From NCBI GenBank assembly GCA_045660625.1, contig JAZREF010000026.1, forward strand, positions 49,342 to 113,341: 64,000 bases of DNA, in the 5' to 3' direction. This document shows positions 7,547-20,462 of this stretch, piece after piece (position 1 is the stretch's first letter; each line of letters starts with the position of its first letter). The position numbers and the translations under genes were made by a program. The DNA is from Acutalibacteraceae bacterium (GTDB lineage Bacteria; Bacillota; Clostridia; Oscillospirales; Acutalibacteraceae). Under the pieces are notes generated by a model. It was not told where the DNA came from and did no database searches. It worked only from the letters and a program-made list of their open reading frames with translations.

Positions 7547-7731
7547 AAACGCCTGCTTTCTCTCATAGGAAAATGAGGTTCTGCATTCCTGTGATAAAAC
7601 GCAAAATAGCACATAGGACCTCACAGTAAGCCTATTATGATTTATGTTATCACAACGGCATCAAAAACGCAAGCATATTTTTGTAGTTTTACAAAGATTT
7701 GCGTCGTTTTTACAGCACCAAAAAATAATTC

Positions 7732-7807: not shown

Positions 7808-7837
7808 ATGAATACAACGAAAAAAGGAGGCCCTCAG

Positions 7838-8950
7838 ATGAGCAGAAAATATCGCCTTGCAACCGCGCTGGACGTAGACGATTTATTGATGGAATGCACC
7901 GCCTACGCCATTCGCTTGGCAAACGAAAAGCACCACTTCGATCCCCCAATGTCTATTTACGAAAAATCGACCTGGGGACCTATCGGATCTCGCATCGACA
8001 CCATTTACGATTACTTCAAAGATCCCGAGTTCTATCGTACGCAGCCGGCGTACAAAGGAGCCCGTGAATTCGTGCACAAATTGTCACAGATGACCGACGT
8101 GTACATTGCTACTGCCGTCCCCCCGGAATTCATGGGAATTCGCGCCGAACGCATCATGGAAGAGTTCCCTGAAATCCCCCGCGACCACATCTACATGGGC
8201 GCCGGAAAAGACAAGATCAAAGTGGACATTTTGTTCGACGACGCGATGCATAATATTGTCTCCTCCCCCGCCAAATTCCCCATTTTGATGCGCCGTCCCT
8301 GGAACCAAGAAGCCACCGGTTTGCTGGCAGTGAACAACTACGACGAATTCCTGAAATTGGTCGAAGTTATCGCCGACAGTTACAGTGTAAACGCAAACTC
8401 CTTTACACCCAAAAATCCCAGTGTTGTCGTGCTTGTAGGCCCCTCCGGCAGCGGTAAATCCAAGATTGCCGCCCAGCTGTTGAGCCAGACGGATAAGTTC
8501 GAAAAATTGATCAGTTACACCACCAATGACCCCACCGCAGTCGAGGTAAACGAGTGGTATAACTACGTTTCTTTGGACACTTTCCGTGAGATGTGCGACA
8601 GCGGTGAAATGTTCCAATCCACTATGTACGCAGGCCATGGTTATGGCTCTCGCAAAGCAGACGTGGAGGAGATTTTGTCGCAAGGAAAACGTGTTCTGAC
8701 CACGATGGATATCTGCGGAGCGATGTCACTTAAAACCAACTTCAAAAACGTCATCACCATCTACGTCAAACGCGACAAAAAAGCACTGATGCGCTCAATT
8801 CTGCGCAAAAATTCCTCCGACGAGGACAAGGTGAATCGCCTGATGGCCATCGAGCCCGAATTGCGCAACGAAAACTTGTGTGATTTTGTCATCGAATTCG
8901 ACACCTACGACCAGGCTGTTGAGCAATTGAAGGATATTTTGAAGATCTGA
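7838..8950 (+). CDS. Fusion protein: NT5C-type 5'(3')-deoxyribonucleotidase (HAD) + degenerate guanylate-kinase-like P-loop domain (paralog 2)
   Basis: The track ORF starts at 7808. AAGGAGG (7824-7830) lies 7 nt before ATG 7838 (MSRKYRLATALDVDDLL). Architecture matches 6434-7546: GPSGSGKS, SYTTNDPTAVEVN, ILRKNSSDED. Confidence 0.75.
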   Translation: MSRKYRLATALDVDDLLMECTAYAIRLANEKHHFDPPMSIYEKSTWGPIGSRIDTIYDYFKDPEFYRTQPAYKGAREFVHKLSQMTDVYIATAVPPEFMGIRAERIMEEFPEIPRDHIYMGAGKDKIKVDILFDDAMHNIVSSPAKFPILMRRPWNQEATGLLAVNNYDEFLKLVEVIADSYSVNANSFTPKNPSVVVLVGPSGSGKSKIAAQLLSQTDKFEKLISYTTNDPTAVEVNEWYNYVSLDTFREMCDSGEMFQSTMYAGHGYGSRKADVEEILSQGKRVLTTMDICGAMSLKTNFKNVITIYVKRDKKALMRSILRKNSSDEDKVNRLMAIEPELRNENLCDFVIEFDTYDQAVEQLKDILKI

Positions 8951-8976
8951 CGTGTGATTTGAAAGGGAGATTTCCA

Positions 8977-10680
8977 TTGAAAAAGGTATTATGCTTGTTG
9001 CTGGTTCTACTCGTTCTACTCTGCGGTTGTAACGCCGATGTAAAGGTAGATATCAACAACTCTACAACCCAAAGCAGTGCGACCGATGCATCAACCACCA
9101 ATGGCGGCTCGAACGGTACCACGGAGCAAAATGGCGATGCAAACGCCACCACCGGCGACGCCACCACGTCCGCCTCTCACTCCAATGGCACCACCTCCCC
9201 CACCACATCCAATGGTGATGCTGCAAGCACCACCACGCAAGCGCAAAAACCCGCCTGTGAGCACAAAGATGCCGACAATAACGAGATTTGCGACGTTTGC
9301 AATTCTTCCGTCTTGGTCATCTTCGATTTTTACAGCATCAATGACCTACACGGCAAATTTGCCGACGCTGACGGCAACATCGGCGTTGACGAGTTGACTA
9401 CCTACCTCAAAAACGCACGCAAAGAGAACCCCAACTCCATCTTCCTGTCCGCAGGCGATATGTGGCAGGGCAGCTCCGAGTCCAATATGACCAAGGGACA
9501 GATTCTGGTGGATTGGATGAACGAACTGGATTTCACCGCCATGACCATTGGCAACCACGAGTTCGACTGGGGCGAGGAATACGTCAAATCTAATGCCGCT
9601 ATGGCCGAATTCCCCTTTGTCGCTATCAACGTCTACGACCGCGAAACCAACAAATTAGTGGATTTCTGCACTCCCTCTGTGATGGTAGACCGCAACGGCA
9701 TTCAAATCGGTATCATCGGTGCCGCCGGCGACAACTACTCCTCCATCGCTGTTGATAAATGCGATGAGGTCTATTTCAAAACCGGCCGCGAATTGACGAA
9801 TCTCGTCAAAAGCGAGGCGGATCGACTGCGCCAGCAGGGTGCCGATTTCATCATCTACCTCCTACACGACGGTTACGGGCAATCCGGCAGCCGCTTCTTG
9901 ACCTCTTCCCAGATGTCTTCTTACTACGACGTGTCGCTTTCGCAAGGCTACGTCGATCTGGTTTTCGAAGCACACACCCATCAGGGCTATCGCGCCGAGG
10001 ATGAACACGGTGTGTATCACCTGCAGAACCGCGGCGATAACAAGGGAGGTATCTCCCACGTTGAGGTTGCCATTAACTCTGTCACGCTGAAAAGTCGTGT
10101 GAACACCGCCGAATTGGTCAACAACGCCGTGTATCAAAACCTGGATGACGACCCCATCGTTGAGCAATTGCTCGAAAAATACGAAGACCAAATCTCCGGC
10201 GCCAGCCGCGTACTGGGTTACAACAGCCGTTATCGCAACAGTTCCACACTGCTGCAAATCGTTGCTCAGCTCTATTACGAACTGGGTGAAAAGACCTGGG
10301 GTGATCAGTACGACATCGTTCTGGGCGGCGGATTTATGTCCGCCCGCAGCCCCTATAATCTGCAGGCAGGTGAAGTCACCTACGGCCAGCTTCAATCCAT
10401 CCTCCCCTTCGATAACCAGTTGACACTCTGTTCCGTTAAGGGCCGTGATTTGAAAAACAAGTTCATCAACACCAGTAACGACCGCTACTACATCTATTAC
10501 GGCGAGTATGGCAACAGCATCAAAAACAACATCGACAACAACAAGACCTACTACATCCTCACCGACAGCTACACTGCCTACTACGCATACAACAATTTAA
10601 CCGTGGTAGCCGAATACGATCCCAATGTTTTTGCTCGCGATCTGCTGGCAGAGTACATTGAGGCCGGCGGCTTCAATTAA
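8977..10680 (+). CDS. 5'-nucleotidase / metallophosphoesterase lipoprotein
   Basis: The track start is TTG 8959. TTG 8977, 6 nt after GAAAGGGAGA, gives the lipobox MKKVLCLLLVLLVLLCGC. An S/T/N-rich linker follows, then the motifs INDLHG, SAGDMWQGS, GNHEFD, HTHQ and a 5'-nucleotidase C-terminal-like half. Confidence 0.8.
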   Translation: MKKVLCLLLVLLVLLCGCNADVKVDINNSTTQSSATDASTTNGGSNGTTEQNGDANATTGDATTSASHSNGTTSPTTSNGDAASTTTQAQKPACEHKDADNNEICDVCNSSVLVIFDFYSINDLHGKFADADGNIGVDELTTYLKNARKENPNSIFLSAGDMWQGSSESNMTKGQILVDWMNELDFTAMTIGNHEFDWGEEYVKSNAAMAEFPFVAINVYDRETNKLVDFCTPSVMVDRNGIQIGIIGAAGDNYSSIAVDKCDEVYFKTGRELTNLVKSEADRLRQQGADFIIYLLHDGYGQSGSRFLTSSQMSSYYDVSLSQGYVDLVFEAHTHQGYRAEDEHGVYHLQNRGDNKGGISHVEVAINSVTLKSRVNTAELVNNAVYQNLDDDPIVEQLLEKYEDQISGASRVLGYNSRYRNSSTLLQIVAQLYYELGEKTWGDQYDIVLGGGFMSARSPYNLQAGEVTYGQLQSILPFDNQLTLCSVKGRDLKNKFINTSNDRYYIYYGEYGNSIKNNIDNNKTYYILTDSYTAYYAYNNLTVVAEYDPNVFARDLLAEYIEAGGFN

Positions 10681-10806: not shown

Positions 10807-10835
10807 TTGACGAACTTGCTACTTTGTGGTAGTAT
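10807..10835 (+). promoter_or_regulatory. Sigma-A-type promoter (extended -10) for island genes A-B-C
   Basis: TTGACG (10807-10812), 17-nt spacer, TGgTAGTAT (-10 box at 10830-10835). Confidence 0.55.
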
Positions 10836-10846
10836 GTAAAAGTTAG

Positions 10847-10875
10847 AATAGAATATTATGCCCTAATATCTATTT
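10847..10875 (+). promoter_or_regulatory. AT-rich imperfect inverted repeat in the leader of island gene A
   Basis: AATAGAATATTA-tgccc-TAATATCTATTT. It could be an operator or a leader hairpin. Confidence 0.3.
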
Positions 10876-10911
10876 TAGAGCAAAATACGCATCAAATTTA
10901 GGAGGACATTT

Positions 10912-13695
10912 ATGAAAAGAAGTCTGAAAATCCTGTCTCTTCTGTTGGCCCTGGCTATGCTGCTGACGCTCGCCACTGCCTGCGGCAACGACGACGGGAA
11001 AAAGCAAAGTGACAAAGCCGGCCTCTCCGGTGACAACGGTAGCGGCGAAGCTACCGACTACACCGTCAGCCTGAAAACCGCCGGCGGCATGCCCATGGCA
11101 GGTATCGACGTGTATATCTACGCCGATTCTTCCAAGAGCGATATGAAAACCTTTGGACAGACCGATGAAAACGGCCTGGCGTCCTTTAACCTGCCTCAGA
11201 GCAGCCAGTACGCCGTCGTTCTCTCCGGCGTGCCCAAGGGCTACGATGTGAAGGATTCCTATTCCTTCTCCGGCACTACCGCCGTCATCACCCTGACCTC
11301 TACCCTCATCACCAACGAGGATCTCTCCTCTATGACTCTGAAGCTGGGCGACGTTATGTGCGACTTCACCGTCACCACTCCCGACGGCGAGAAGATTACT
11401 CTGTCCAAGATGCTGCAGGAGAAAAAGATGGTGCTGATCAACTTCTGGTATACCACCTGCAGCTGGTGTGTCACCGAGTTCCCCTATATGGAGCAGGCCT
11501 ACCAGCAGTATAAGGATGAGGTTGGTATCATCGCCGTCAACCCCCTGGGCGAAACCGACGCCGCCATCAAGGCTTTCCCCGCTAACTACAGCCTGGATTT
11601 GAGCTTCCCCTTGGCCGCTTGTCCTACCGCTTGGTCTCAGACTTTCGGCATTCAGGGTTATCCTACCTCTGTCATCGTGGACCGCTACGGCGTCATCACC
11701 CTGATCGAGTCCGGTGCTATCACCAGCCTGAATCCTTTTACCAGCCTGTTTGAGACCATGACTGCCGACGATTATCAGCAGAAGTTGTACAACAGCGTCG
11801 GTGAGCTGATTGTCAATCCCAAGCCCACCTACGAGATGGATACTCCCGAGAACGTTGCCGCTCTGCTGAACTCCGGCAAGATTCCCGTTACTTACCATGC
11901 CGAAACCGAAGAGAACAGCAAGGAGTATGCTTGGCCCTTCATCGCCACTGAGAAGAATGGCGTTAAGTGCTTGAAGGCCTCCAACCAGGGCATCGACTCC
12001 TCCTTCGGCGTTATCTACGCCGACGTCACCCTGAAGAAGGGTCAGGCTTTGGGTCTGGATTACTTAATGTCCAGCGAAAACGGCGCCGACACCTTCGTAG
12101 TAATCGTTAATGGCGAAGACATCTTCACCATCTCCGGCTACAACGACAAAGAGAAGTGGGAATCCTGCTTCCCCGTTGTCGCCGATAAGGACGGCACCTA
12201 TGAAGTGGCTCTGTTCTACCTGAAGGATGACAGCAACGCTGCCGGTGACGACACCGTCTACATCAAGAACGTGCGCATCGTGGATGCTTCTAAGATCTCC
12301 ACCCCCACCTACCTGCCTCGTCCCGCTGCCAAGCCCGTAAGCGATACCGATTACGAGTACGTCAAGCTGGTCTTCAACAGCGCTGACGGCTACTATCACG
12401 TTGGCTCCAAGAACGGTCCTCTGCTGTTGGCCGACCTGATGGGCTACACCGAGTTTAACGAAGAGGCTTCTGTTTGGGATCTGGCTTATGACGGCAAGAT
12501 TGTTGTCGGCGGCAAGGATTACAAAGAAGCTCTGACTCAGTATTGTAACTATGCCTCCAACTCCAAGGGCGGTCTTTGCACCGTCAACCAGGAGCTGATG
12601 GATCTGCTGAAGATCGTTGACTCTGCCGTCGGTTTCGACGATGCGGACACCAATGAGTGGCTGAAAATTTGTAAGTACTACGAGGCCTACGGCTCCAACG
12701 GCAAGCAGCTGGAGGATCCCATTAAGGGTCTGGCTACCTTCTCTGCTTTCACTGCTACCGAAGGCAAGAACGTTAAGAGCAACTACTTCTACTACGATCA
12801 GATTCTGATGCCTCGCGGCAAGCTGGCCAAGTTCGTGCCCAGCCGCTCCGGTGTGTATCGCATCACCTCTCGCAGCGAGTCCGCTCAGGGCGTAGATGGC
12901 TGGCTGTTCGGCAAGAACCACGAGGAACTGCTGGTTTACGAGCACGTTGAGAGAATGTACGAGGGCGACGAAGTCTCCATGGTTTATTACATGAAGAAGG
13001 GCGAGCCTTACTACATCGACATCGCCTTCTGGGATGTGTACGAGGTCGGTTACATCTACTACGATATCGAGTACGTTGCCTCCGAGTGGGATTACTTCCG
13101 TCTGTGCTCTCCCGGTTACTTCACCTACGACTCCGACGCTACCGGTAACGAGATGTATCACCTGATCGCCGGCGGTATCGACGTGGTGCTGGGCAGCGAC
13201 GGTATCTACTACGAGGATCTGGGCAACGGCAAGAAGGGCAGTAAGATCTACGCCGACTTCGTTGGTATCACCCCCATCTTCAGCACATCCATCCAGTCCA
13301 TGATCAAAATGGGCGGCTTCGACTTCTCCAAGTCTGAGGACGACCTGTATATCCTGAACGCTCTGAAGCAGAACGGCAACGACAAGGAAAAAACTAAGGC
13401 CTATCTGAAGCAGGAGTGGGGCGAGACTTACGAGGCCACCTACGAGGAGTATAAGGTTGACGAAGTCTTCGCCGGTAAGTACCACGGCACCGGCAAGGAT
13501 ATGACCGAAGACATCAAGAAGTTCGAGAAGCAGATTATCAAGAGCGGCGCCAAAGAGTTGCAGGGCTGCGTGGTCGTGACCAAGGAATTGGCCGATATTC
13601 TGCACAAGCTGATGGGCAAGTACACCTTCGAGGACGTGGACAACTCTTGGCTGAAGGTCTGCTATTACTACGATCACCTGGGCCCCAACGGCTAA
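10912..13695 (+). CDS. Island protein A (927 aa): lipoprotein with Ig-like domain + ResA/TlpA-like thioredoxin (CSWC) + large uncharacterised region carrying two 'DGYYH' modules
   Basis: AGGAGG RBS and lipobox LLTLATAC. Ig-like domain YTVSLKTAGGMPMAGIDVYIYAD..DENGLASFNL..YAVVLSGVPKGY. Trx module VLINFWYTTCSWCVTEFPYM...GYPTSVIVD. The C-terminal roughly 640 aa have no motif I can name. Confidence 0.8.
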   Translation: MKRSLKILSLLLALAMLLTLATACGNDDGKKQSDKAGLSGDNGSGEATDYTVSLKTAGGMPMAGIDVYIYADSSKSDMKTFGQTDENGLASFNLPQSSQYAVVLSGVPKGYDVKDSYSFSGTTAVITLTSTLITNEDLSSMTLKLGDVMCDFTVTTPDGEKITLSKMLQEKKMVLINFWYTTCSWCVTEFPYMEQAYQQYKDEVGIIAVNPLGETDAAIKAFPANYSLDLSFPLAACPTAWSQTFGIQGYPTSVIVDRYGVITLIESGAITSLNPFTSLFETMTADDYQQKLYNSVGELIVNPKPTYEMDTPENVAALLNSGKIPVTYHAETEENSKEYAWPFIATEKNGVKCLKASNQGIDSSFGVIYADVTLKKGQALGLDYLMSSENGADTFVVIVNGEDIFTISGYNDKEKWESCFPVVADKDGTYEVALFYLKDDSNAAGDDTVYIKNVRIVDASKISTPTYLPRPAAKPVSDTDYEYVKLVFNSADGYYHVGSKNGPLLLADLMGYTEFNEEASVWDLAYDGKIVVGGKDYKEALTQYCNYASNSKGGLCTVNQELMDLLKIVDSAVGFDDADTNEWLKICKYYEAYGSNGKQLEDPIKGLATFSAFTATEGKNVKSNYFYYDQILMPRGKLAKFVPSRSGVYRITSRSESAQGVDGWLFGKNHEELLVYEHVERMYEGDEVSMVYYMKKGEPYYIDIAFWDVYEVGYIYYDIEYVASEWDYFRLCSPGYFTYDSDATGNEMYHLIAGGIDVVLGSDGIYYEDLGNGKKGSKIYADFVGITPIFSTSIQSMIKMGGFDFSKSEDDLYILNALKQNGNDKEKTKAYLKQEWGETYEATYEEYKVDEVFAGKYHGTGKDMTEDIKKFEKQIIKSGAKELQGCVVVTKELADILHKLMGKYTFEDVDNSWLKVCYYYDHLGPNG

Positions 13696-13725
13696 TCCTA
13701 TCCCAATATTGAAAGGGGATTCTCT

Positions 13726-14952
13726 ATGAAAGTGTTTTCTAAGATTATGGCTGCTGTGCTGGCCGTAATTATGCTGTTTACCCTGTGCGCCTGCGGTAGC
13801 AACGACGGCGACAGCGGTATGGCAAAGTATCGTGTCAAAGTGCTGGATGGTGAGGGCAAGGCCCTCACCACCGGCGTGATCGTTAAGTTCATGAAGGATG
13901 GTCAGCAGATTGCCATGCAGCCCGTCAACGGCGAAGGCGTTGCGGAGAAGGAACTGGAAAAGGGCAATTACACCGTTGAGCTGACCTTCACCAACAGCGA
14001 AACGAGCGGTCATTACGACACCTCCGCCGCTGTGCTTACCGCAGACAAAACCGAGCTGGAACTGTCCTTGATCAACGCACTCGGCACCGAGAGCTACGAC
14101 CTGGTCGTTGGCGAGGAAACCTACACCGCTTTTGCCGTTAACGCCGGTAGCACCTACATCCCCGTCAAGGCTTCTAAGCGTAATTACTTCCTCTTCACCC
14201 CCACCGCCGCCGGTAACTACAAACTTTCCGTGGATAACAACGCTGTGAAGGTTGGTTACTATGGCTCTCCCTACTTCGTGCAGGCTTTGAGCGCTATTGA
14301 CGTCATCGACAATGCCGTCACCCTCTCTGTCAACGAAGGCTCTTTGGGCGGTACTTACGTTTTCGGCTTGGACGGCATTGATGCGGATACGAACGTGATT
14401 ATGAACATCATTCGTATCGGCGATCCCACTCTGTCTTTTGACGATCTCCCCTGGACCGAATATAAGACCTCTCATACTCCTGCTCCCTACACCCTGAATC
14501 TGGGTGGTAAGAGCCTGAAGTATATGGACATCAAGGGCAAGACCGAGGACTACAAAGTCATCTACAACGACGCCGACGGCTACTACCACTTTGGCACTGC
14601 CGACGGTCCTATCGTTTTGATGCATCTGGACAAAAAGGCCCCGAACCTCTCTCTGCAGACGGTTATTGAGGGCGACGGCCTCGGCGGTGGCGCTCCCATC
14701 CGCAAGTATTTCTTCGACGGCAAGGGCACCGCTCCCGAAAACCTGGTCAAGCGTGAGGACTACACCGACATCCTGCGCAACTATTTTGCAAACATGGATC
14801 CTAACGCCGGTGTGTATCCTCTGACGAAAGATCTGGAGTATATCATCAAAACTGCTTGCTCCGGCTGGTGGACCAAGGATGATCCCGACTACATCTTTAC
14901 CGATTGTAATCCCGAACTCGGCTGGATGTTCGCCCTGTGCTACGTTGGTTAA
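13726..14952 (+). CDS. Island protein B (408 aa): lipoprotein with Ig-like domain + beta-rich domain + one 'DGYYH' module
   Basis: RBS GAAAGGGGA and lipobox MLFTLCAC. Ig-like YRVKVLDGEGKALTTGVIVKF. C-terminal NDADGYYHFGTADGPIVLMHL ... PLTKDLEYIIKTAC...WMFALCYVG is paralogous to parts of A and D. Confidence 0.75.
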   Translation: MKVFSKIMAAVLAVIMLFTLCACGSNDGDSGMAKYRVKVLDGEGKALTTGVIVKFMKDGQQIAMQPVNGEGVAEKELEKGNYTVELTFTNSETSGHYDTSAAVLTADKTELELSLINALGTESYDLVVGEETYTAFAVNAGSTYIPVKASKRNYFLFTPTAAGNYKLSVDNNAVKVGYYGSPYFVQALSAIDVIDNAVTLSVNEGSLGGTYVFGLDGIDADTNVIMNIIRIGDPTLSFDDLPWTEYKTSHTPAPYTLNLGGKSLKYMDIKGKTEDYKVIYNDADGYYHFGTADGPIVLMHLDKKAPNLSLQTVIEGDGLGGGAPIRKYFFDGKGTAPENLVKREDYTDILRNYFANMDPNAGVYPLTKDLEYIIKTACSGWWTKDDPDYIFTDCNPELGWMFALCYVG

Positions 14953-14964
14953 GGAGTGAGCGAT

Positions 14965-17148
14965 ATGAAGACTATGATGAAACGATTGCTCACCCTGACC
15001 GCCTGCATGCTGTTGCTGGTTACAATGGTTGCAGGTTGCGGCAAAGAAGAGGATGCTGTCTTGCTGACCGGCTGTACGGTTAAAGTGCAAACCGAGGGCG
15101 GTGTGAAACTGGCTAACGTTGGCGTGTCCATCTACACCGACAAGGATAAAACCGAGCTCGTGGACTTCGCACGTACGAACGAGAGCGGAGTAGCGATGAT
15201 GAACGTTGCTATCCCCGCCGATAGCTGCGTATTCCTCACCGACTTGCCCGATGGCTACGAATTCAACGGCTACGTCACCATTGATCTCAAGGATAAGAAT
15301 CCTGTCATCACCTTGTCTGCCGGTCTCAAGACCGAGATGACCTCTATTAAACTGGGCGACGTGATGTTTGATTTCACCGTCACCGACCAGAACGGTACGG
15401 AGCACACGCTTTCTAAACTGTTGGAGAACAAAAAGGCGGTTGCCATCAATCTGTGGTACACCACCTGCGCTCCCTGTAAGATGGAGTTCCCCTTCCTCCA
15501 GCAGGCTTACAACGAGTATAGCGACGATATCGCGCTGGTGGCTATCACTCCTATGGATGATCCCGATTCCATCGCCGCCTTTGCCACCGAGAATGGTTTG
15601 ACCATTCCTATGGCCCCCTGTGACCCCAAGTGGAACGACTGGATGGTGGCCAACGCCTACGGCTACCCCACCACCATCATTGTGGACCGCTTCGGCACCG
15701 TTGCTTTCATCCACAGCGGCAGTATCGACAACAGCAAAACCTTTAAGAATATGTTTGACTTCTTCACGGCCGACGATTACGTCCAGACCACCGTGTCTGA
15801 CGTTATTCAGTTTGTAAAGGTTGAGGATGAGAACACCCTGGGCACTGCCGCCAACCCTTATGAGTACAGCGGTAGCACCGGTTTCTCCGTTGAGGTTGAG
15901 CCTGCTCAGACCGTGTACTACACCCTCTATGGTGTAGACGGCTTGAATCTGTCTGTCAACAGCGACACCCTCAGAATGATGTATAACGAGCAGGAATATA
16001 AACCCAATAAGGGTAATATCTCCTTTACTATTCGTGCCACCGATGTCACCGCTCCCGTGTTAGTCAGTTTCACTAACGTCGGCAGCGAAAAGGCTACCTA
16101 CAAGGTCGCCCTCACCTCCCCCGAGGGTTCCTCTGCCAACCCCATCACCATGAAGGATGGTAGCGTTACCGTGAAAATGGAGGAAGGCAACAACCGTGGC
16201 GTGTACTATCAGTACAAGGCAGCATACGAAGGCACCTTCACCCTGGAATGCAAAAACACGGTCAATTACACCGTTACCATCAAGAATCTGAACGGCAACG
16301 AAACCGCCACCTTGGATAAGAACACTAAGAAGGCGACCATTGACGTTCGTAAGAACGATAAGATTCAGATTGTGGTTACCGCTGTAGCAAAGGATGGCAA
16401 GTATCCCGCCACCGAGGCCAAGTTGAACGCCTCCAGTAAGAAGGAGGAAATTCCCGTAACCCCTCCCACCGGTAGCGGTAATAACAAGCCTTCCCTCAAC
16501 ACCAACGGCAAGCTGATCAATCCCGATGCTCCTATCGAGTTCGGTAGCGTGCTGAACTTTGACGCTGAGGTAAAGGCAGGCGAAATCGTGTTGTACCACG
16601 TATTCCGTGTCGGCGGCACCACCTTGCGTATTGCCGATCCCACCGCATACGTCATCTATCTGGATAAACTCTACACCCCCGACAGCAATGGTTACATCTA
16701 TATTCCCGTGACCACCAAGAGCCCCACCATCCCCGTCATCCTTCAAATTGGTAATGGCGGCACCGAGAACAAGACCTATCCCGTCAAGTTCTCCTTCCCC
16801 GAAGGTAGCGCTATGAATCCCTACGATATCGTTTCCGGCTCCTCTAAGGCAAATCTGGCCGCCGGCAACGAGCAGGGTGTATACTACCAAGGTGTTGCCG
16901 AAAAGAGCGGCAAGGTCACGATTACACTTAAGAACGTTACCAAGGGCGTAGAGTGTGACATCCGTGTTGATGTAACGGATGAAAACTACATTCCTCAACA
17001 GTATTTGCTCTCCCAGAGTGAGGACGGCAAAACGCTGACAGTGGACGTTGAGAAAGGCTATGAGATTGTCATCAATGTCGTTGCCATTCCCGATGAGGAA
17101 TACAAATATCCCGCTGCCACCGTTGAATTTACCGTTTCCTTCTCCTAA
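14965..17148 (+). CDS. Island protein C (~727 aa): lipoprotein with Ig-like domain + ResA/TlpA-like thioredoxin (CAPC) + four beta-sandwich-like repeats
   Basis: The track start is GTG 14956. AAGGAG (14951-14956) favours ATG 14965. Lipobox VTMVAGC. Trx module AINLWYTTCAPCKMEFPFL...GYPTTIIVD. Repeats are delimited by PEGS-x-x-NP. Confidence 0.8.
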   Translation: MKTMMKRLLTLTACMLLLVTMVAGCGKEEDAVLLTGCTVKVQTEGGVKLANVGVSIYTDKDKTELVDFARTNESGVAMMNVAIPADSCVFLTDLPDGYEFNGYVTIDLKDKNPVITLSAGLKTEMTSIKLGDVMFDFTVTDQNGTEHTLSKLLENKKAVAINLWYTTCAPCKMEFPFLQQAYNEYSDDIALVAITPMDDPDSIAAFATENGLTIPMAPCDPKWNDWMVANAYGYPTTIIVDRFGTVAFIHSGSIDNSKTFKNMFDFFTADDYVQTTVSDVIQFVKVEDENTLGTAANPYEYSGSTGFSVEVEPAQTVYYTLYGVDGLNLSVNSDTLRMMYNEQEYKPNKGNISFTIRATDVTAPVLVSFTNVGSEKATYKVALTSPEGSSANPITMKDGSVTVKMEEGNNRGVYYQYKAAYEGTFTLECKNTVNYTVTIKNLNGNETATLDKNTKKATIDVRKNDKIQIVVTAVAKDGKYPATEAKLNASSKKEEIPVTPPTGSGNNKPSLNTNGKLINPDAPIEFGSVLNFDAEVKAGEIVLYHVFRVGGTTLRIADPTAYVIYLDKLYTPDSNGYIYIPVTTKSPTIPVILQIGNGGTENKTYPVKFSFPEGSAMNPYDIVSGSSKANLAAGNEQGVYYQGVAEKSGKVTITLKNVTKGVECDIRVDVTDENYIPQQYLLSQSEDGKTLTVDVEKGYEIVINVVAIPDEEYKYPAATVEFTVSFS

Positions 17149-17154
17149 CAGTAT

Positions 17155-17191
17155 AAAGGCCGAATGGCATTAGCCATTCGGCCTTTTCTTT
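17155..17191 (+). terminator. Rho-independent terminator after island gene C
   Basis: GGCCGAATGGC-atta-GCCATTCGGCC followed by TTTTCTTT. Confidence 0.8.
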
Positions 17192-17237
17192 ACCTAAAGA
17201 ATATATATAAGTTTTTAATGAAAATCGTAAAAACCTC

Positions 17238-17266
17238 TTGCCTGTTTCACGCTAAAGTGATAAAAT
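17238..17266 (+). promoter_or_regulatory. Sigma-A-type promoter (extended -10) for island gene D
   Basis: TTGCCT, 17-nt spacer, TGaTAAAAT. Confidence 0.55.
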
Positions 17267-17309
17267 GAATCGTACTGATTTTATCTTTTACCAACAAGGA
17301 GGAATCACT

Positions 17310-18743
17310 ATGAAAAAATGGATCAGTATTTTGTGCATCGTTCTGATGCTTTGCTCCGCCATGACCGTTGCGGTCAACGCAGCAGGCGCCGGTACCCAGG
17401 AGGACCCGGTTGTCTTTGCCGGAGCGGACTTCAATATGGTTAAAATCCCCGCGGGTGCGACCTATTACGTCAGCTATACCGACAGTTTGGGGAATGCCAA
17501 GAGCCAGATTAGCATCAACTCTTCCACCGATCCCGAAGCTGGTTATGTAGTGACCTACGGCGATACCGTAGCGAACAGTGACGCTGACGGCTTCTGCAAT
17601 ATCGTCGCCGCTCCCGACGCTAATTTCACCTACAACCTGTCTATCCAGAACAATTCCACCAAACAGATCAACATCTTCATTAGCTTCTATGCTATCGCTC
17701 CCTATGAGATTTCCGATCTACCCCTGTATGAGGGTGAGAACGCTGTCACTACCCTGGCCGCTGATACCACTCTGTACGCTTTTGAACCTGCCGATTTGGG
17801 TGTCTACGAGATCGCTGTTGACAAAGAGGCAGTTCTCTCTCACTGGAACGGTTCCGTCTTCTACGTCACCGGTTTGAACAAAGAAACCACCGCCGGCAAG
17901 CTGGAGGTCATTTGCAGCGCACTGGGTCAGTCTCTGCTGATTGGTTTGAGTGGCGTTGACGCAGCCAACATTACCATCACCAGAACTGACGACTACGTCC
18001 CCGCCGCCTCTGTAGAGTACGTGACATACGAGAACAAGCACACTCCCATTGCCGGCTTCAAGCTACCCGCTGGCGAACTGACCGCTGTAGACATCACTGT
18101 TTCTCAAACCGTTATTCTGGGTGCTGACGGCTATTACCACTATGGTGACGCCAGTGGTCCCATCCTGTATGTGGATATGACCGGCACCACCTACGCCGAT
18201 CTGTACGAGTGCTACTATCCCTCTGCTGCCGAGCCTGCCGACCGTCTGCGCGGCACCTATGTGGGCGAGGATGGCAAGAAATACGGATATGACTTCATCA
18301 CCGCTATGAAGGCCTATGCCGACGCCTTGGATGAGAACGGCTACTACTACCTGACCGAGGACCTGGCCAACTACCTGCAGATGTATGGTAAGGATCAGGG
18401 CTGGTACAAGGCTGAGTACTCCCCCTTCGAGATCATTCAGAGTGGCAACTTCAACGCCGACTCCGCTTGGCTGGTATCTGCCTACTACATTCCCTCTGCC
18501 GATGGCGACGAGCCTGTCACCCCCGACGAGCCCGATGTTCCCGACACTCCTGTGGACCCCGAGGATCCCACCGAGCCCGAGACTCCTGACACTCCCGATG
18601 AGCCCGTTACCCCTGACGAGCCCACCGACGACAACGAGGAGTCCGAGAGCCCCGAAACCGGTGACGTGTCCGCCTTTGGCGCCGTTGCTGCTCTGCTGCT
18701 GTCCTCTGCAGGTGCTCTGACCCTGCGCAAAAAGCACAACTAA
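17310..18743 (+). CDS. Island protein D (~477 aa): secreted, sortase-anchored wall protein with beta-sandwich-like domains + 'DGYYH' module + P/T/E/D-rich stalk
   Basis: The track start 17265 lies inside the -10 box. AAGGAGG precedes ATG 17310 (MKKWISILCIVLMLCSAMTVAVNA signal peptide). The C-terminus is SPETG + hydrophobic stretch + RKKHN, a cell-wall sorting signal. Confidence 0.8.
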   Translation: MKKWISILCIVLMLCSAMTVAVNAAGAGTQEDPVVFAGADFNMVKIPAGATYYVSYTDSLGNAKSQISINSSTDPEAGYVVTYGDTVANSDADGFCNIVAAPDANFTYNLSIQNNSTKQINIFISFYAIAPYEISDLPLYEGENAVTTLAADTTLYAFEPADLGVYEIAVDKEAVLSHWNGSVFYVTGLNKETTAGKLEVICSALGQSLLIGLSGVDAANITITRTDDYVPAASVEYVTYENKHTPIAGFKLPAGELTAVDITVSQTVILGADGYYHYGDASGPILYVDMTGTTYADLYECYYPSAAEPADRLRGTYVGEDGKKYGYDFITAMKAYADALDENGYYYLTEDLANYLQMYGKDQGWYKAEYSPFEIIQSGNFNADSAWLVSAYYIPSADGDEPVTPDEPDVPDTPVDPEDPTEPETPDTPDEPVTPDEPTDDNEESESPETGDVSAFGAVAALLLSSAGALTLRKKHN

Positions 18744-18754
18744 TAAACCCATTG

Positions 18755-18792
18755 TCACGGGAACAGACGCGCTCTGTTCCCGTGATTTTTTT
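18755..18792 (+). terminator. Rho-independent terminator after island gene D
   Basis: TCACGGGAACAGA-cgcgc-TCTGTTCCCGTGA followed by TTTTTTT. Confidence 0.8.
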
Positions 18793-18802
18793 GAAGAAAT
18801 AC

Positions 18803-18831
18803 TTGCAATTTTGTTGTAAAAGTGCTATACT
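18803..18831 (+). promoter_or_regulatory. Sigma-A-type promoter (extended -10) for island genes E(-F)
   Basis: TTGCAA, 17-nt spacer, TGcTATACT. Confidence 0.55.
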
Positions 18832-18886
18832 ACATTGGATTTAAACGGCAAAGATCAAACAGTTCAATATTTAGGAGGACAAATTT

Positions 18887-19318
18887 ATGAAGATGAAGTC
18901 TATGCTTCTGGTTGCTCTGTGCGTGTGTATGACCATCTGTCTGTGCGCTTGCGGCGGCACCAGCACCGGTGACGATACCACCGGCAACACCACTACCACC
19001 ACTCAGAGCACCACCACCACTACCATTACCACTACGACCACTACCACTACCGTGGATGACGGTAAGGTAACCTACTCCGTCACCGTCCTGGATGAGAACG
19101 GCGCCCCTGTTCCCGGTGCTTTCGTTCAGCTGTGCCTGGAGGCCTGCATTCCCTGCATGACCAATGCTCAGGGCGTTGCAACCTACCCCAATATGGCTGA
19201 GGCCGACTACAAGGTCAGCTTCATTAATGTGCCCGCCGGCTATGAGCTGCCCACCGACAACTTCTACTTTGAGGACGGCTCCTACGAGATGACCCTCACC
19301 CTGCAGCTGGCTGCCTAA
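18887..19318 (+). CDS. Island protein E (143 aa): small lipoprotein, Thr-rich linker + Ig-like domain with a CLEACIPC cysteine cluster
   Basis: AGGAGG RBS and lipobox ICLCAC. Poly-T linker. Ig-like VTYSVTVLDENGAPVPGAFVQL..NAQGVATY..YKVSFINVPAGY. Confidence 0.75.
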   Translation: MKMKSMLLVALCVCMTICLCACGGTSTGDDTTGNTTTTTQSTTTTTITTTTTTTTVDDGKVTYSVTVLDENGAPVPGAFVQLCLEACIPCMTNAQGVATYPNMAEADYKVSFINVPAGYELPTDNFYFEDGSYEMTLTLQLAA

Positions 19319-19328
19319 TCCAATCGTT

Positions 19329-19365
19329 AAACCGCTCCGCACAGTTACGGTGGAGCGGTTTTTCT
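19329..19365 (+). terminator. Terminator or attenuator hairpin between island genes E and F
   Basis: ACCGCTCC...GGAGCGGT followed by TTTTT, only about 30 nt before the F start. No separate promoter for F is obvious. Confidence 0.6.
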
Positions 19366-19394
19366 CTACCAGCGATCAGAAAGGACCTCCCGAT

Positions 19395-20417
19395 ATGTAT
19401 AAGCGCCTATTGTGCATCTGTCTTTGCAGCCTTATGCTGACCGGCTGCGGCGCGAACGCTCCGCAGACTGACAGCGTTGCAACTACAACGACCAGCTCCA
19501 CGACCACCACTACGCAAAGCACAGAAAGCCCCACCACTACCGTCACCGAGTCGACAACGCAGACGACATTGAACACGACAAAAGAGTCTACCACCGCGAA
19601 TCTCAGCGATGCCACTACTCTGACGACGACCAATGTAACGACAAATACTACGACTTCGGTTTCAATCGCTCCTTCCACCACTACTACGGATGCCAATAGC
19701 ATCACTTTCAAGGTGACGGTGCGTGAAAACGTGCATAAACAAACCGTCAGCGGCGTTCGCGTCACCGTATATGTGGACGAGAACGCTGAAAACTCCGGCT
19801 CCGCCACCACCGATCAGCAGGGTGTGGCGCGCATAGCGCTACAACGAGGCTCCAGTTATCGTGTGGAACTCGCCAATCTGCCCAGTGGATACGAAGCGAA
19901 TGCGTTTTACACCTTTGCCACCACCACCGCCAACATTACCATTCGTCAAGCCGCCGTCCAAGACGAGAAAGATCACAGCAAAGCCCAATATGAAGAGGGG
20001 CGGAAAATGACCGACTTTTCGTTGACGGATATCGACGGTAACACCTATCAATTGTCCGATTTGTGTGCAGAAAAGCAATTGATTGTGTTGGACTTCTGGT
20101 ACACCACCTGCGAGCCCTGCAAAATGGAGTTCCCCTACTTCGAATCCGCCGTGCAGAAATACGGCGATAAGCTATCCTTGCTCGCTGTCAACCCCATCAA
20201 TGATGACCGGGCAATGTCCGCACTGCGTCAGCAGTTCGGCTCCTCCATTACCTTCCCGATGCTGAAAGATACCTGCAACCTCTACCTAGGATTCGCGGTG
20301 ACGGCCTATCCGACCACGGTATTCATCAACTCCAACGGCGTCATCTTAGACATCCACGAGGGGGCCTATGTCAGCGAGGAAGCCTTCCTCTCCGCCATCC
20401 AACGATATCTGCATTAA
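19395..20417 (+). CDS. Island protein F (~340 aa): lipoprotein, Thr-rich linker + Ig-like domain + ResA/TlpA-like thioredoxin (CEPC)
   Basis: The track start is GTG 19350. ATG 19395 gives the lipobox MYKRLLCICLCSLMLTGC. The Trx module LIVLDFWYTTCEPCKMEFPYFESAV...AYPTTVFIN closely resembles B. subtilis ResA (FWGTWCEPCKKEFPYM). Confidence 0.8.
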   Translation: MYKRLLCICLCSLMLTGCGANAPQTDSVATTTTSSTTTTTQSTESPTTTVTESTTQTTLNTTKESTTANLSDATTLTTTNVTTNTTTSVSIAPSTTTTDANSITFKVTVRENVHKQTVSGVRVTVYVDENAENSGSATTDQQGVARIALQRGSSYRVELANLPSGYEANAFYTFATTTANITIRQAAVQDEKDHSKAQYEEGRKMTDFSLTDIDGNTYQLSDLCAEKQLIVLDFWYTTCEPCKMEFPYFESAVQKYGDKLSLLAVNPINDDRAMSALRQQFGSSITFPMLKDTCNLYLGFAVTAYPTTVFINSNGVILDIHEGAYVSEEAFLSAIQRYLH

Positions 20418-20423
20418 CAAAGC

Positions 20424-20462
20424 AAAAAGCCGTGCTGCTTATCGCAGCACGGCTTTTTTATT
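20424..20462. terminator. Bidirectional terminator shared by island gene F (+) and spoVM (-)
   Basis: AGCCGTGCTGC-ttatc-GCAGCACGGCT, flanked by an A-tract and a T-tract. Confidence 0.75.

What the first reader, a model, noticed from the sequence alone, without database searches (positions are those of the whole stretch)
10807..20462. Six-gene surface-protein island built around three ResA/TlpA-like thioredoxins fused to Ig-like domains
Seen in sequence:
- Six consecutive same-strand genes: A 10912-13695, B 13726-14952, C 14965-17148, D 17310-18743, E 18887-19318, F 19395-20417.
- All six encode exported proteins. Five have lipoboxes. D has an SPase-I signal plus an SPETG sorting signal.
- A, C and F repeat the same N-terminal architecture: lipobox, optional S/T linker, a roughly 90-aa CarboxypepD_reg-style Ig-like domain, then a thioredoxin module (FWYTTC-x-x-C-x-x-EFPY ... 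YPT[ST]).
- That thioredoxin module is very close to B. subtilis ResA.
- B and E carry the Ig-like domain without a thioredoxin.

Established knowledge: ResA, StoA, TlpA and Etrx are extracytoplasmic thiol-disulfide reductases. They are normally single-domain and work with CcdA/DsbD on defined clients (cytochrome c, spore cortex, MsrAB).

Inference: three paralogous thioredoxin fusions, clustered with large cysteine-bearing proteins of unknown fold, form a surface redox/binding system. I cannot map it to any described pathway. No ccdA/dsbD, msrAB or cytochrome-maturation gene and no regulator lies in the window.
Basis: partly seen in the sequence, partly recalled or inferred. Interest (0 to 1): 0.75.

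Follow-up and report, generated by a model that had tools for sequence, protein, structure and literature searches.

The report
Conserved surface thioredoxin lipoprotein gene cluster
Uncultured gut Clostridia carry a conserved set of cell-surface genes in which membrane-tethered thioredoxin enzymes are always paired with a previously undescribed protein module. This points to an uncharacterised surface disulfide-handling machine whose target is still unknown.

Summary
The six genes, their export signals and the three Ig-like + ResA/TlpA-type thioredoxin (Trx) modules are real.

New here:
- **Shared module.** A's unassigned C-terminus, B and D share a beta-sandwich plus alpha/beta module ("S-M", motif DGYYH.G..GP). 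It has no Pfam, PDB-sequence or Foldseek relative.
- **Family size.** The module family has 1,084 clusters at 50% identity. In its long members, redoxin is the only recurrent catalytic partner (27 of 45).
- **Conserved unit.** The unit is A-B-C(+D)-E, not six genes. Among 57 related loci with enough flank, B follows A in 47, a second Trx gene occurs in 55, and an E-like gene in 52. In 33 loci the C- and D-type parts form one polypeptide. F occurs only in close relatives.
- **Hosts.** 206 species-level genomes carry an A relative. The best 80 are all gut MAGs (Faecousia, Oscillospiraceae, Acutalibacteraceae).
- **Electron supply.** No ccdA/dsbD, msrAB or cytochrome-maturation gene is in the window or recurrent in relatives. 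In 23 of 54 related loci a NapH-like polyferredoxin-Trx fusion and a CD1871A-family CXXC membrane protein lie next to the island.

Best reading: a surface thiol-disulfide oxidoreductase assembly, probably reducing. Its target and electron source are unproven. It is a new variant of a known kind, of moderate interest.

The parts
10807..10835 (+). Sigma-70-type promoter-like site upstream of A (TTGACG-17-TAGTAT, with TG extension)
   Evidence: The -35 TTGACG and its surroundings are conserved in the closest relatives L001 and L025, and TATTGACG is the most frequent 8-mer upstream of A in 71 loci. Promoter-like sites in the region are not more numerous than chance (5 found, 10.8 expected), so position and conservation are the argument.
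10912..13695 (+). Gene A, a 927-aa lipoprotein. Lipobox C24; Ig-like aa 46-128 (nt 11047-11295); ResA/TlpA-type Trx aa 140-285 (nt 11329-11766) with CSWC..EFP at nt 11458-11484 and cis-Pro YPT at nt 11659-11667; beta-sandwich As1 aa 320-460 (nt 11869-12291); module M1 aa 465-595 (nt 12304-12696, DGYYH at 12385-12399); sandwich S aa 612-731 (nt 12745-13104); module M2 aa 745-927 (nt 13144-13692).
   Evidence: (AF2 pLDDT 82.6). Most conserved island protein: median 54-59% identity over 80 loci, with the unassigned domains as conserved as the Trx. Conserved Cys: 183/186, 237, 353, 419, 556/587, 886/917.
13726..14952 (+). Gene B, a 408-aa lipoprotein (LCAC23). Ig-like aa 32-118 (nt 13819-14079); beta-sandwich S aa 123-232 (nt 14092-14421); module M aa 264-408 (nt 14515-14949, DGYYH at 14575-14589). 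Invariant C378, C394 and C405.
   Evidence: AF2 pLDDT 87.4; B_M against A_M1: 97% probability, E 5e-11. No Pfam or PDB match. Follows A directly in 47 of 57 loci.
14965..17148 (+). Gene C, a 727-aa lipoprotein (VAGC25). Ig-like aa ~37-120 (nt 15073-15324); Trx aa ~125-265 (nt 15337-15759) with CAPC..EFP at nt 15466-15492; four beta-sandwich repeats R1-R4 (nt 15835-17145) arranged as a duplicated pair.
   Evidence: 36% identical to A over the N-terminal 300 aa; R1~R3 E 3e-12, R2~R4 E 3e-9. A second Trx gene is present in 55 of 57 loci.
17238..17266 (+). Promoter-like site upstream of D
   Evidence: Lies in the 161-nt C-D gap.
17310..18743 (+). Gene D, a 477-aa secreted and probably sortase-anchored protein. 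SPase-I signal; N-terminal sandwich aa 25-140; S aa 141-232; M aa 233-400 (DGYYH at nt 18126-18140); Pro/Asp/Glu/Thr-rich stalk aa 401-445; SPETG at nt 18648-18662, followed by a hydrophobic stretch and RKKHN.
   Evidence: (B~D E 2e-11). In 33 of 57 loci the equivalent S-M module is fused to the C-type Trx protein. Related loci show SPATG, SPDTG, VPPTG and APATG.
18754..18786 (+). Intrinsic-terminator-like hairpin after D (14-bp stem followed by a T run)
18803..18831 (+). Promoter-like site upstream of E
18887..19318 (+). Gene E, a 143-aa lipoprotein (LCAC22). Thr-rich linker aa 23-56; Ig-like domain aa 58-143 carrying C83-x3-C87 (nt 19133-19156, CLEACIPC).
   Evidence: C83 and C87 are conserved in 96% of 67 E-family proteins (motif VQ.C...C.P..T...G.A). 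Present in 52 of 57 loci.
19395..20417 (+). Gene F, a 340-aa lipoprotein (LTGC18). Ser/Thr-rich linker aa 19-105; Ig-like aa 106-192 (nt 19710-19970); Trx aa 200-336 (nt 19992-20402) with CEPC..EFP at nt 20109-20135, the same CxxC as ResA.
   Evidence: A lineage-specific extra copy: a third Trx gene occurs in only 4 of 57 loci, and the family gave only 87 hits.
20424..20458 (.). Bidirectional terminator-like hairpin (15-bp stem) that closes the island

Best explanation
The island encodes a multi-protein thiol-disulfide oxidoreductase assembly on the cell surface of uncultured gut Clostridia, mainly Oscillospiraceae.

Proposed layout:
- Lipid-anchored ResA/TlpA-type thioredoxin modules (A, C, F) sit next to the membrane behind a short Ig-like spacer.
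- Each core Trx is fused to, or genetically coupled with, a distal beta-sandwich plus novel alpha/beta 'S-M' head. A carries two such modules in cis, B carries one, and D carries one that is fused to C in most relatives.
- E is a small lipoprotein with a conserved CxxxC.

Proposed mechanism:
- The Trx modules are kept reduced by a membrane electron donor encoded outside this window.
- They reduce disulfides in a target that the S-M heads hold or present.
- That target is either an external disulfide-bearing substrate or the island's own cysteine-bearing modules (the M-module Cys pairs and E's CxxxC).

Shown: the gene set, the domain architecture, the Trx fold and active-site motifs, the co-conservation, the C/D fusion, and the family-wide Trx/S-M association.

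Inferred: catalytic activity, the reducing direction, the role of the S-M heads, and the donor.
For: - Trx identity and reductase-type motifs (CxxC-x2-EFP with the ResA Glu, cis-Pro YPT), invariant across 46 A orthologues.
- All six proteins carry export and anchoring signals.
- Gene order A-B-Trx2-(S-M)-E is kept down to about 54% identity to A. Of 57 loci, 47 have B, 55 a second Trx gene, 52 an E-like gene, and 44 all three.
- Rosetta-stone fusion of C-type Trx with a D-type S-M module in 33 of 57 loci.
- The S-M family has 1,084 clusters at 50% identity. The module almost always sits at the extreme C-terminus, and redoxin is the only recurrent catalytic partner (27 of 45 long members).
- A's unassigned domains are as conserved as its Trx (66-74% against 72% column identity). 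That fits a specific conserved function better than a variable adhesin.
- A candidate donor lies next to the island in 23 of 54 loci. It is a NapH-like polyferredoxin followed by a TM helix and a ResA-like Trx, together with a CD1871A-family CXXC membrane protein.
Against: - No activity, redox potential or substrate is known.
- The S-M module has no structural or sequence relative, so its role as a 'binding head' is a guess from its position and conservation.
- The window itself encodes no electron donor.
- The polyferredoxin-Trx is a widespread independent module. None of 35 unbiased metagenome loci carrying it has an island nearby.
- ResA-like sequence motifs do not fix the direction of electron flow.
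- A's CxxC varies between orthologues (CSWC, CGPC, CTWC, CTYC).
Confidence: 0.5

Rival explanations
1. The Trx modules are dedicated oxidative-folding or isomerisation catalysts, comparable to SdbA, MdbA or BdbD. They would form or shuffle the structural disulfides of the island's own exported cysteine-bearing modules. A membrane partner such as the NapH-like polyferredoxin would re-oxidise them, as DsbB or VKOR does.
For: - Exported modules carry conserved Cys pairs: A C556/C587 and C886/C917, B C378/C394/C405, E C83/C87.
- From my own knowledge, Firmicutes generally avoid cysteines in exported proteins unless a disulfide catalyst is present.
- Also from my own knowledge, NapH-type proteins are quinol dehydrogenases and VKOR-Trx fusions exist, so a membrane-protein-Trx fusion could run in the oxidising direction.
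Against: - All three modules keep the ResA-type C..C..EFP context with the acidic residue typical of reductants.
- D's M module has no Cys pair, yet it stays linked to a Trx.
- A strict anaerobe has no obvious terminal oxidant.
- Three paralogous catalysts, each fused to large domains, is excessive for folding a few disulfides.
Confidence: 0.2
2. The island is a surface antioxidant or repair system for a strict anaerobe. The Trx modules would detoxify oxidants or repair oxidised surface proteins, as the pneumococcal CcdA-Etrx-MsrAB2 pathways do.
For: - The best Pfam match is AhpC-TSA.
- Etrx1 and Etrx2 are structural neighbours.
- The hosts are gut anaerobes.
Against: - No msrA/B or ccdA gene is in the window or recurrent in 80 loci.
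- The peroxiredoxin P...T..C context is absent around C183, which sits in NFWYTTC (direct reading).
- No PerR- or Rex-type box lies upstream of A in 71 loci.
- This reading gives the highly conserved S-M and As1 domains nothing to do.
Confidence: 0.12
3. These are mainly adhesins or wall-associated structural proteins (stalks of Ig-like and beta-sandwich domains), and the Trx modules are accessory or no longer catalytic.
For: - Fold searches with B return only pilins and other tandem beta-sandwich surface proteins.
- D has a sortase-type anchor and a Pro-rich stalk.
- The long family members are rich in Big_1, SpaA and CarboxypepD_reg repeats.
Against: - CxxC, the Glu and the cis-Pro are invariant across 46 A orthologues.
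- A is far more conserved than adhesins usually are.
- The fold-search matches are weak (TMq <= 0.22) and generic.
- The strict family-wide coupling to redoxin would be left unexplained.
Confidence: 0.08
4. F, and perhaps C, is simply the organism's ResA/StoA-type housekeeping reductase for cytochrome c maturation or spore-cortex synthesis, and lies beside unrelated surface genes by chance.
For: - F has ResA's exact CEPC..EFPY motif.
- ResA and StoA are its best NCBIfam models (E 4e-22 and 1.5e-13).
- F has its own transcription unit with E.
Against: - Scores are far below the family cutoffs: 79 against 170 for ResA and 51 against 210 for StoA.
- No resBC or ccdA gene was found.
- F shares the island-specific Ig-like + Trx architecture with A and C.
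- F occurs only in genomes that have the island.
- From my own knowledge, Oscillospiraceae are fermentative anaerobes not known to make c-type cytochromes.
Confidence: 0.05

Closest known systems
Bacillus subtilis ResA and the B. anthracis 'ResA' thiol-disulfide oxidoreductase (PDB 1su9/1st9, 4nmu)
   Same: - Same TlpA/ResA-type thioredoxin fold: TMt 0.73-0.87 for the 23 ResA and B. anthracis TDOR chains listed.
- Best sequence matches in the PDB, E 1e-12 to 3e-16.
- Same C-x-x-C-x-x-E-F-P active-site context and cis-Pro. F has the identical CEPC.
- Extracytoplasmic and membrane-tethered.
   Different: - Only 25-34% identical in Foldseek's alignments for A's Trx domain.
- NCBIfam ResA scores are 67-84 against a cutoff of 170.
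- Lipid-anchored through a lipobox, where ResA uses a TM helix.
- Preceded by an Ig-like domain and, in A and C, followed by 450-640 aa of extra domains.
- No resBC or ccdA neighbours.
- The host lineage is not expected to make cytochrome c (my own knowledge).
Streptococcus pneumoniae Etrx1/Etrx2 with CcdA1/2 and MsrAB2 (PMC3914529)
   Same: - Surface-exposed thioredoxin-family lipoproteins of a Gram-positive bacterium.
- Present as paralogues.
- Structural neighbours of A's Trx domain (4hqs, 4hqz, 2yp6).
   Different: - Etrx proteins are single-domain, are encoded with ccdA and msrAB2, and reduce MsrAB2.
- Here there is no ccdA or msrAB.
- The Trx modules here are fused or linked to S-M modules that pneumococci lack.
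Bacteroidetes TlpA-like lipoproteins with an N-terminal beta-sandwich (for example PDB 2ls5, 2lrn, 4grf)
   Same: - Gut-bacterial, exported, multi-paralogue TlpA-like redoxins of unknown target.
- They appear among the structural matches.
   Different: - Different phylum and different accessory domains.
- No S-M module.
- No conserved A-B-C-E-type operon is known to me (my own knowledge, not tested here).
DsbD/CcdA and VKOR-Trx or DsbB membrane redox relays
   Same: By analogy only. In 23 of 54 related loci a membrane protein with a fused extracytoplasmic Trx, the NapH-like polyferredoxin-Trx, lies next to the island. It could carry electrons across the membrane to or from the surface Trx modules.
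   Different: - It is not homologous to DsbD, CcdA or VKOR.
- It carries Fer4_5 CX3CP motifs and two 4Fe-4S motifs.
- Neither the direction nor the mechanism of electron transfer is known.
- It is absent from this window.

Membership tests
TlpA/ResA-like extracytoplasmic thioredoxin-fold oxidoreductases (Pfam AhpC-TSA / Redoxin clan) | Profile match above the curated cutoff | tested here: met
   AhpC-TSA 51.7, 53.9 and 59.3 bits (cutoff 26). Redoxin 50.3, 47.3 and 51.7 bits (cutoff 26.6) for A, C and F.
TlpA/ResA-like extracytoplasmic thioredoxin-fold oxidoreductases (Pfam AhpC-TSA / Redoxin clan) | Thioredoxin fold with a CxxC active site and a cis-proline loop | tested here: met
   AF2 model of A against ResA, TDOR and Etrx structures: TMt 0.73-0.87, rmsd 2.0-4.7 A. 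CSWC, CAPC and CEPC plus YPT are present in A, C and F. C183, C186, E189, F190, P191, Y250, P251 and T252 are invariant in 46 orthologues.
TlpA/ResA-like extracytoplasmic thioredoxin-fold oxidoreductases (Pfam AhpC-TSA / Redoxin clan) | Export and membrane tethering | tested here: met
   Signal peptides with lipoboxes were read directly. No dedicated signal-peptide predictor was available.
TlpA/ResA-like extracytoplasmic thioredoxin-fold oxidoreductases (Pfam AhpC-TSA / Redoxin clan) | Thiol-disulfide exchange activity | not testable with these tools
   Needs insulin or DTNB assays and a redox-potential measurement.
ResA proper (NCBIfam NF002854; cytochrome c maturation reductase) | Score at or above the family cutoff of 170 bits | tested here: not met
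   84.1 (A), 66.9 (C) and 79.0 (F) bits.
ResA proper (NCBIfam NF002854; cytochrome c maturation reductase) | Genomic association with resB/resC (CcsBA) and ccdA | tested here: not met
   None among the 20 other window proteins scanned. None recurs within +/-10 kb in 80 related loci. The rest of the genome was not available.
StoA (NCBIfam NF041202; spore cortex thiol-disulfide oxidoreductase) | Score at or above the cutoff of 210 bits | tested here: not met
   29.9 (A), 28.7 (C) and 50.9 (F) bits.
Etrx-CcdA-MsrAB2 type surface repair pathway | Trx lipoprotein encoded with ccdA and msrA/B | tested here: not met
   Lipoprotein Trx modules are present, but no ccdA or msrAB is in the window or recurrent in related loci. 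System definition taken from PMC3914529.
Peroxiredoxin (AhpC/BCP type) | Peroxidatic Cys in a P-x3-T/S-x2-C context | tested here: not met
   By direct reading, A has L-I-N-F-W-Y-T-T-C183, with no Pro at -7 and Tyr at -3. C and F read likewise. The best structural matches are ResA-type proteins, with Prx structures ranked lower and at poor rmsd.
Sortase-anchored cell-wall proteins (D) | C-terminal sorting signal: pentapeptide, then a hydrophobic segment, then a basic tail | tested here: inconclusive
   SPETG, then DVSAFGAVAALLLSSAGALTL, then RKKHN, read directly. NCBIfam LPXTG_anchor scores 14.9 against 15.9, and Rumino_NPXTG 15.1 against 23.5. Orthologues show SPATG, SPDTG, VPPTG and APATG. 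No sortase gene was seen among the window proteins scanned.
CarboxypepD_reg / Big_1-type Ig-like domains | Profile match above cutoff, or matching fold | tested here: inconclusive
   Window proteins score below cutoff: Big_1 21.9 against 34.9 and CarboxypepD_reg 18.9 against 32.3. The beta-sandwich fold appears in both AF2 models. 3e8v matches B at TMt 0.75. Family members reach E 2.8e-46 for CarboxypepD_reg.
Any described family for the S-M module and A's As1 domain | A significant match in Pfam, NCBIfam, PDB sequences, PDB folds or viral folds | tested here: not met
   Pfam and NCBIfam give nothing. PDB sequences give 0 hits at E <= 10. Foldseek against PDB and BFVD gives only generic sandwich hits with TMq <= 0.22. 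No library of predicted cellular structures (AlphaFold DB) and no HHpred were available.

The most novel reading that the evidence does not exclude
The island, together with the NapH-like polyferredoxin-Trx and CD1871A-family pair found beside it in many relatives, may form a ferredoxin-driven route that does not use CcdA or DsbD. It would move reducing power across the membrane to an extracellular disulfide reductase. The S-M heads would capture environmental disulfides such as cystine, oxidised thiols, or disulfide-rich host or dietary proteins. This would give strictly anaerobic gut Oscillospiraceae a way to regenerate extracellular thiols or to open up disulfide-locked protein substrates. 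A giant cell-envelope subtilase follows the island in 8 related loci, which fits the second idea.
Probability: 0.12. Interest if true: 0.85.

Novelty: new variant of a known kind. Interest (0 to 1): 0.52.

Why it matters
Extracytoplasmic thioredoxins are understood mainly through a few single-domain examples with defined clients: ResA, StoA, TlpA and Etrx.

Here a large group of uncultured gut Clostridia is involved. It comprises 206 species-level genomes, more than 2,200 A-type clusters at 90% identity, and 1,084 S-M clusters at 50% identity. This group keeps Trx modules coupled to a new, strongly conserved module family, with none of the known clients or donors nearby.

If the reading is right, the cluster defines:
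- a new accessory domain family for thiol-disulfide enzymes;
- a conserved surface redox complex in abundant but little-studied gut anaerobes;
- together with the neighbouring polyferredoxin-Trx, a candidate alternative to CcdA/DsbD for supplying or removing electrons at the Gram-positive surface.

It also yields concrete recombinant targets (three Trx modules, E's CxxxC domain, the S-M heads) for organisms that have no cultured representative among the best 80 loci.

Tried and rejected
- **Source contig.** Exact look-ups of A and of its 100%-identical cluster representative P0001 found no contig on record. The source genome could not be retrieved, so ccdA or polyferredoxin-Trx genes elsewhere in it could not be sought.
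- **PDB sequences.** Searches with the B profile and with A's C-terminus gave 0 hits at E <= 10.
- **Fold searches.**
  - Full-length A returned only Trx-domain matches.
  - B against PDB and BFVD returned only weak, generic tandem-sandwich matches.
  - Both structure-prediction slots were then spent, so the isolated M and As1 domains could not be searched alone.
- **Rfam.** The whole window gave no match, so there is no riboswitch clue.
- **PADLOC.** No defence-system match.
- **Regulator boxes.** Rex, PerR/Fur, Spx and FNR-type boxes are absent upstream of A in 71 loci.
- **Literature.** No paper mentions CD1871A. Nothing relevant turned up on polyferredoxin-thioredoxin fusions, Faecousia surface proteins, or extracellular disulfide reduction by TlpA-like proteins.
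- **Polyferredoxin-Trx as an island-specific part.** Rejected: 0 of 35 unbiased metagenome loci carrying it have an island nearby.
- **Long antisense ORFs as genes.** The ORFs over A-C (for example 12064-15714, minus strand, 1,216 aa) are shadow ORFs. They recur in related loci only as shadows of A and B (clusters 3, 5 and 8).
- **Beta-sandwich homology.** The sandwiches As1, S(A) and S(B) are not detectably homologous by sequence.

Full report
**1. The observation**

The six ORFs are present on the + strand at the stated coordinates. Gaps are short for A-B (30 nt) and B-C (12 nt), and longer for C-D (161 nt), D-E (143 nt) and E-F (76 nt).

Read directly, A, B, C, E and F start with signal peptides that end in lipoboxes: LATAC, LCAC, VAGC, LCAC and LTGC. 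D has an SPase-I-type signal. Its C-terminus is SPETG followed by a hydrophobic segment and RKKHN. NCBIfam's LPXTG and NPXTG anchor models score D just under their cutoffs.

Promoter-like sites precede A, D and E. Strong hairpin terminators follow D (18754-18786) and F (20424-20458). This suggests three transcription units: ABC, D and EF.

**2. The thioredoxin modules**

Pfam AhpC-TSA and Redoxin match A, C and F above cutoff. NCBIfam ranks ResA first for all three, but at 67-84 bits against a cutoff of 170. StoA, TlpA and DsbE models score lower still.

The AF2 model of A has mean pLDDT 82.6. Its residues 140-285 superpose on ResA, the B. anthracis TDOR, Etrx1/2 and FetE, at TMt 0.73-0.87 for the ResA-type chains. 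Sequence searches of the PDB give ResA-type proteins as best hits, at E 1e-12 to 3e-16. F's active-site stretch is almost identical to ResA's.

All three modules keep C-x-x-C-x-x-E-F-P and the YPT cis-proline loop. These residues are invariant in 46 A orthologues. The modules are therefore ResA/TlpA-type oxidoreductase domains. They do not meet the membership criteria for ResA, StoA or the Etrx pathway.

**3. The unassigned parts**

A 290-927, B, D and C 270-727 have no Pfam or NCBIfam match. They also have no PDB sequence relative, even at E <= 10.

They are related to each other, however:
- B and D are paralogues (E 2e-11).
- A's C-terminus hits both B and D around a DGYYH.G..GP motif, twice against D.
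- Profile-profile alignment gives A_M1 against B_M at 97% probability (E 5e-11), and A_M1 against A_M2 at 96%.

The AF2 models give these domain layouts (A at pLDDT 82.6, B at 87.4):

| Protein | Layout |
|---|---|
| A | Ig - Trx - sandwich As1 - M - sandwich S - M |
| B | Ig - S - M |

By homology, D is sandwich - S - M - Pro-rich stalk - sorting signal.

C's C-terminus is a duplicated pair of beta-sandwich repeats (R1~R3 E 3e-12, R2~R4 E 3e-9).

Foldseek with B against PDB and against viral models returns only generic tandem-sandwich proteins at TMq <= 0.22. The alpha/beta M module therefore has no recognisable relative in the libraries available.

E is a lipoprotein with a Thr-rich linker and an Ig-like domain. 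That domain carries a C-x3-C pair conserved in 96% of 67 family members.

**4. Comparative genomics**

A's full-length architecture recurs in more than 2,200 protein clusters. The top 120 are all about 920-1,000 aa long, except for a few shorter sequences on short contigs.

A scan of one genome per species found relatives in 206 genomes. The best 80 are all MAGs from ruminant, deer, chicken and human gut. They are labelled Faecousia, Oscillospiraceae or Acutalibacteraceae, with a few labelled Lachnospiraceae.

Composition of the 57 loci with at least 6 kb downstream of A:

| Feature | Loci | Share |
|---|---|---|
| B-type gene directly after A | 47 | 82% |
| At least one further Trx gene | 55 | 96% |
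| E-type gene | 52 | 91% |
| B, second Trx and E all present | 44 | 77% |
| Second Trx is one chain, Ig-Trx-repeats-(Ig)n-S-M | 33 | 58% |
| Third (F-like) Trx gene | 4 | 7% |

- The 33 single-chain cases show that the window's C and D are a split form of one protein.
- The upstream 5'-nucleotidase appears only in the nearest relatives.
- Minimal islands consist of A, a roughly 300-aa Ig-Trx protein and E.

A is the most conserved member, at a median 54-59% identity against 28-47% for the others. Its unassigned domains are as conserved as its Trx domain.

An exhaustive profile search with B found 1,084 clusters at 50% identity. The module is almost always at the extreme C-terminus of proteins between about 410 and 1,816 aa long. 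Among 45 long members, the only recurrent non-Ig domain is redoxin (27 of 45). The Trx/S-M coupling is therefore a property of the whole family.

**5. Electron supply**

The window has no ccdA/dsbD, msrAB, cytochrome-maturation, sortase or regulator gene among the 20 other proteins scanned. Its flanks are an ABC sugar-type transporter, an RDD protein, two NT5C-guanylate kinase fusions and a nucleotidase lipoprotein upstream. Thiamine pyrophosphokinase, RsgA, PknB and other housekeeping genes lie downstream. No CcdA-like membrane protein recurs in the 80 loci.

In 25 loci (23 of the 54 with at least 9 kb downstream) the island is followed by a convergent gene for a protein of about 490 aa. It has NapH/MauN-type Fer4_5 motifs, two 4Fe-4S motifs, one further TM helix preceded by a basic stretch, and a ResA-like Trx (NFWGTWCTPC..ELPYF). 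In 18 loci it is accompanied by a multi-pass membrane protein ending in a CD1871A-family CXXC motif.

This pair is a plausible membrane redox partner, but it is not specific to the island:
- None of 35 metagenome loci selected through the polyferredoxin-Trx has A- or B-type modules nearby.
- In some of them the Trx precedes the ferredoxin part or is a separate neighbouring gene.
- The pair is not encoded in this window.

**6. Mechanism**

The most economical reading is a surface thiol-disulfide oxidoreductase assembly. Membrane-proximal Trx modules act on cysteines of a target that the distal S-M heads bind or present. E's CxxxC domain and the M-module Cys pairs are candidate internal clients or relays.

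The ResA-type active-site context favours a reducing role, but sequence alone cannot settle the direction. An oxidative-folding role comparable to SdbA or MdbA is the main rival. An Etrx-like antioxidant role, a mainly adhesive role and a ResA/StoA housekeeping role for F are each less well supported. The evidence for and against each is listed under the rivals.

No riboswitch, defence signature or redox-regulator box narrows this further. The literature held nothing on this architecture. The closest characterised system is pneumococcal CcdA-Etrx-MsrAB2, whose defining partners are absent here.

**7. Verdict**

The finding is a new variant of a known kind: extracytoplasmic TlpA/ResA-type thioredoxins in a conserved, widespread and uncharacterised multi-protein context, with a new accessory module family. 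I score interest as moderate (0.52).

For a higher score: the cluster is abundant and strongly conserved in poorly understood gut anaerobes, and it offers testable recombinant targets. Against a higher score: multi-paralogue TlpA-like lipoproteins of unknown function are common in gut bacteria, and no substrate, activity or donor has been shown.

Noticed in passing
L023:17516-18991 (-), L073:11893-12660 (-), and 23 further related loci. Not in the window.: A protein of about 490 aa made of a NapH/MauN-like polyferredoxin (Fer4_5 CX3CP motifs and two 4Fe-4S motifs), an extra TM helix and a ResA-like Trx. In 18 loci a multi-pass membrane protein ending in a CD1871A-family CXXC motif lies next to it. 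The pair lies convergent to the island in 23 of 54 loci with enough flank. Relatives are widespread in metagenomes without the island, sometimes with the domain order swapped or the Trx as a separate gene. No paper mentions CD1871A.
   Followed up: partly
L035:14508-21773 (+) and 7 other loci with minimal islands: A giant (about 2,400-aa) membrane-anchored cell-envelope subtilase follows the island where B is absent. Domains: Peptidase_S8, PA, Fn3-like, Big_2 and seven BspA-type LRR repeats, with 25 Cys. A possible hint at proteolysis of disulfide-rich substrates.
   Followed up: partly
window 19133-19156 (E, CLEACIPC): E's Ig-like domain carries a C-x3-C pair conserved in 96% of 67 family members (motif VQ.C...C.P..T...G.A). 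This is unusual for a CarboxypepD_reg-like domain, and its role (structural, redox or metal-binding) is unknown.
   Followed up: partly
window 12160-12180 (A residue C419, WESCFPV): Several A orthologues (for example in L020, L036, L054, L064 and L079) have a second CxxC, W.SCYPC, in the As1 sandwich. The window's A has a single Cys there (SCFPV).
   Followed up: no
window 6434-7624 (-), 7808-8950 (+), 8959-10680 (+): Two divergently oriented paralogous fusions of an NT5C-type 5'-nucleotidase with guanylate kinase. They are followed by a lipoprotein of the metallophosphatase / 5'-nucleotidase family with a Thr/Ser-rich linker. This looks like a nucleotide-salvage cluster. The lipoprotein is linked to the island only in the closest relatives (L001, L025).
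   Followed up: partly
window 12064-15714 (-), 10870-11898 (-), 16060-16998 (-): Very long stop-free antisense ORFs (up to 1,216 aa) overlap A-C. They recur in related loci only as shadows of the sense genes, so they are artefacts of codon bias, not genes.
   Followed up: yes
L052, L055, L059 (second loci from genomes that also hold L017, L026 and L030): Some genomes carry a second, solitary copy of A without B, a second Trx or E beside it.
   Followed up: no
window 1-64000: GC skew is negative across the whole window (cumulative -3.2). Most housekeeping genes from 20.8 kb onward are on the minus strand. The island and the nucleotidase genes therefore appear to lie on the lagging strand.
   Followed up: no
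window 10830-10911 (5' leader of A): The leader of about 75 nt between the promoter-like site and A's start (GATAGAATAGAATATTATGCCCTA.TATCTATTTTA) is nearly identical in L001 and L025, although A is only 84-85% identical at protein level. It has no Rfam match.
   Followed up: no
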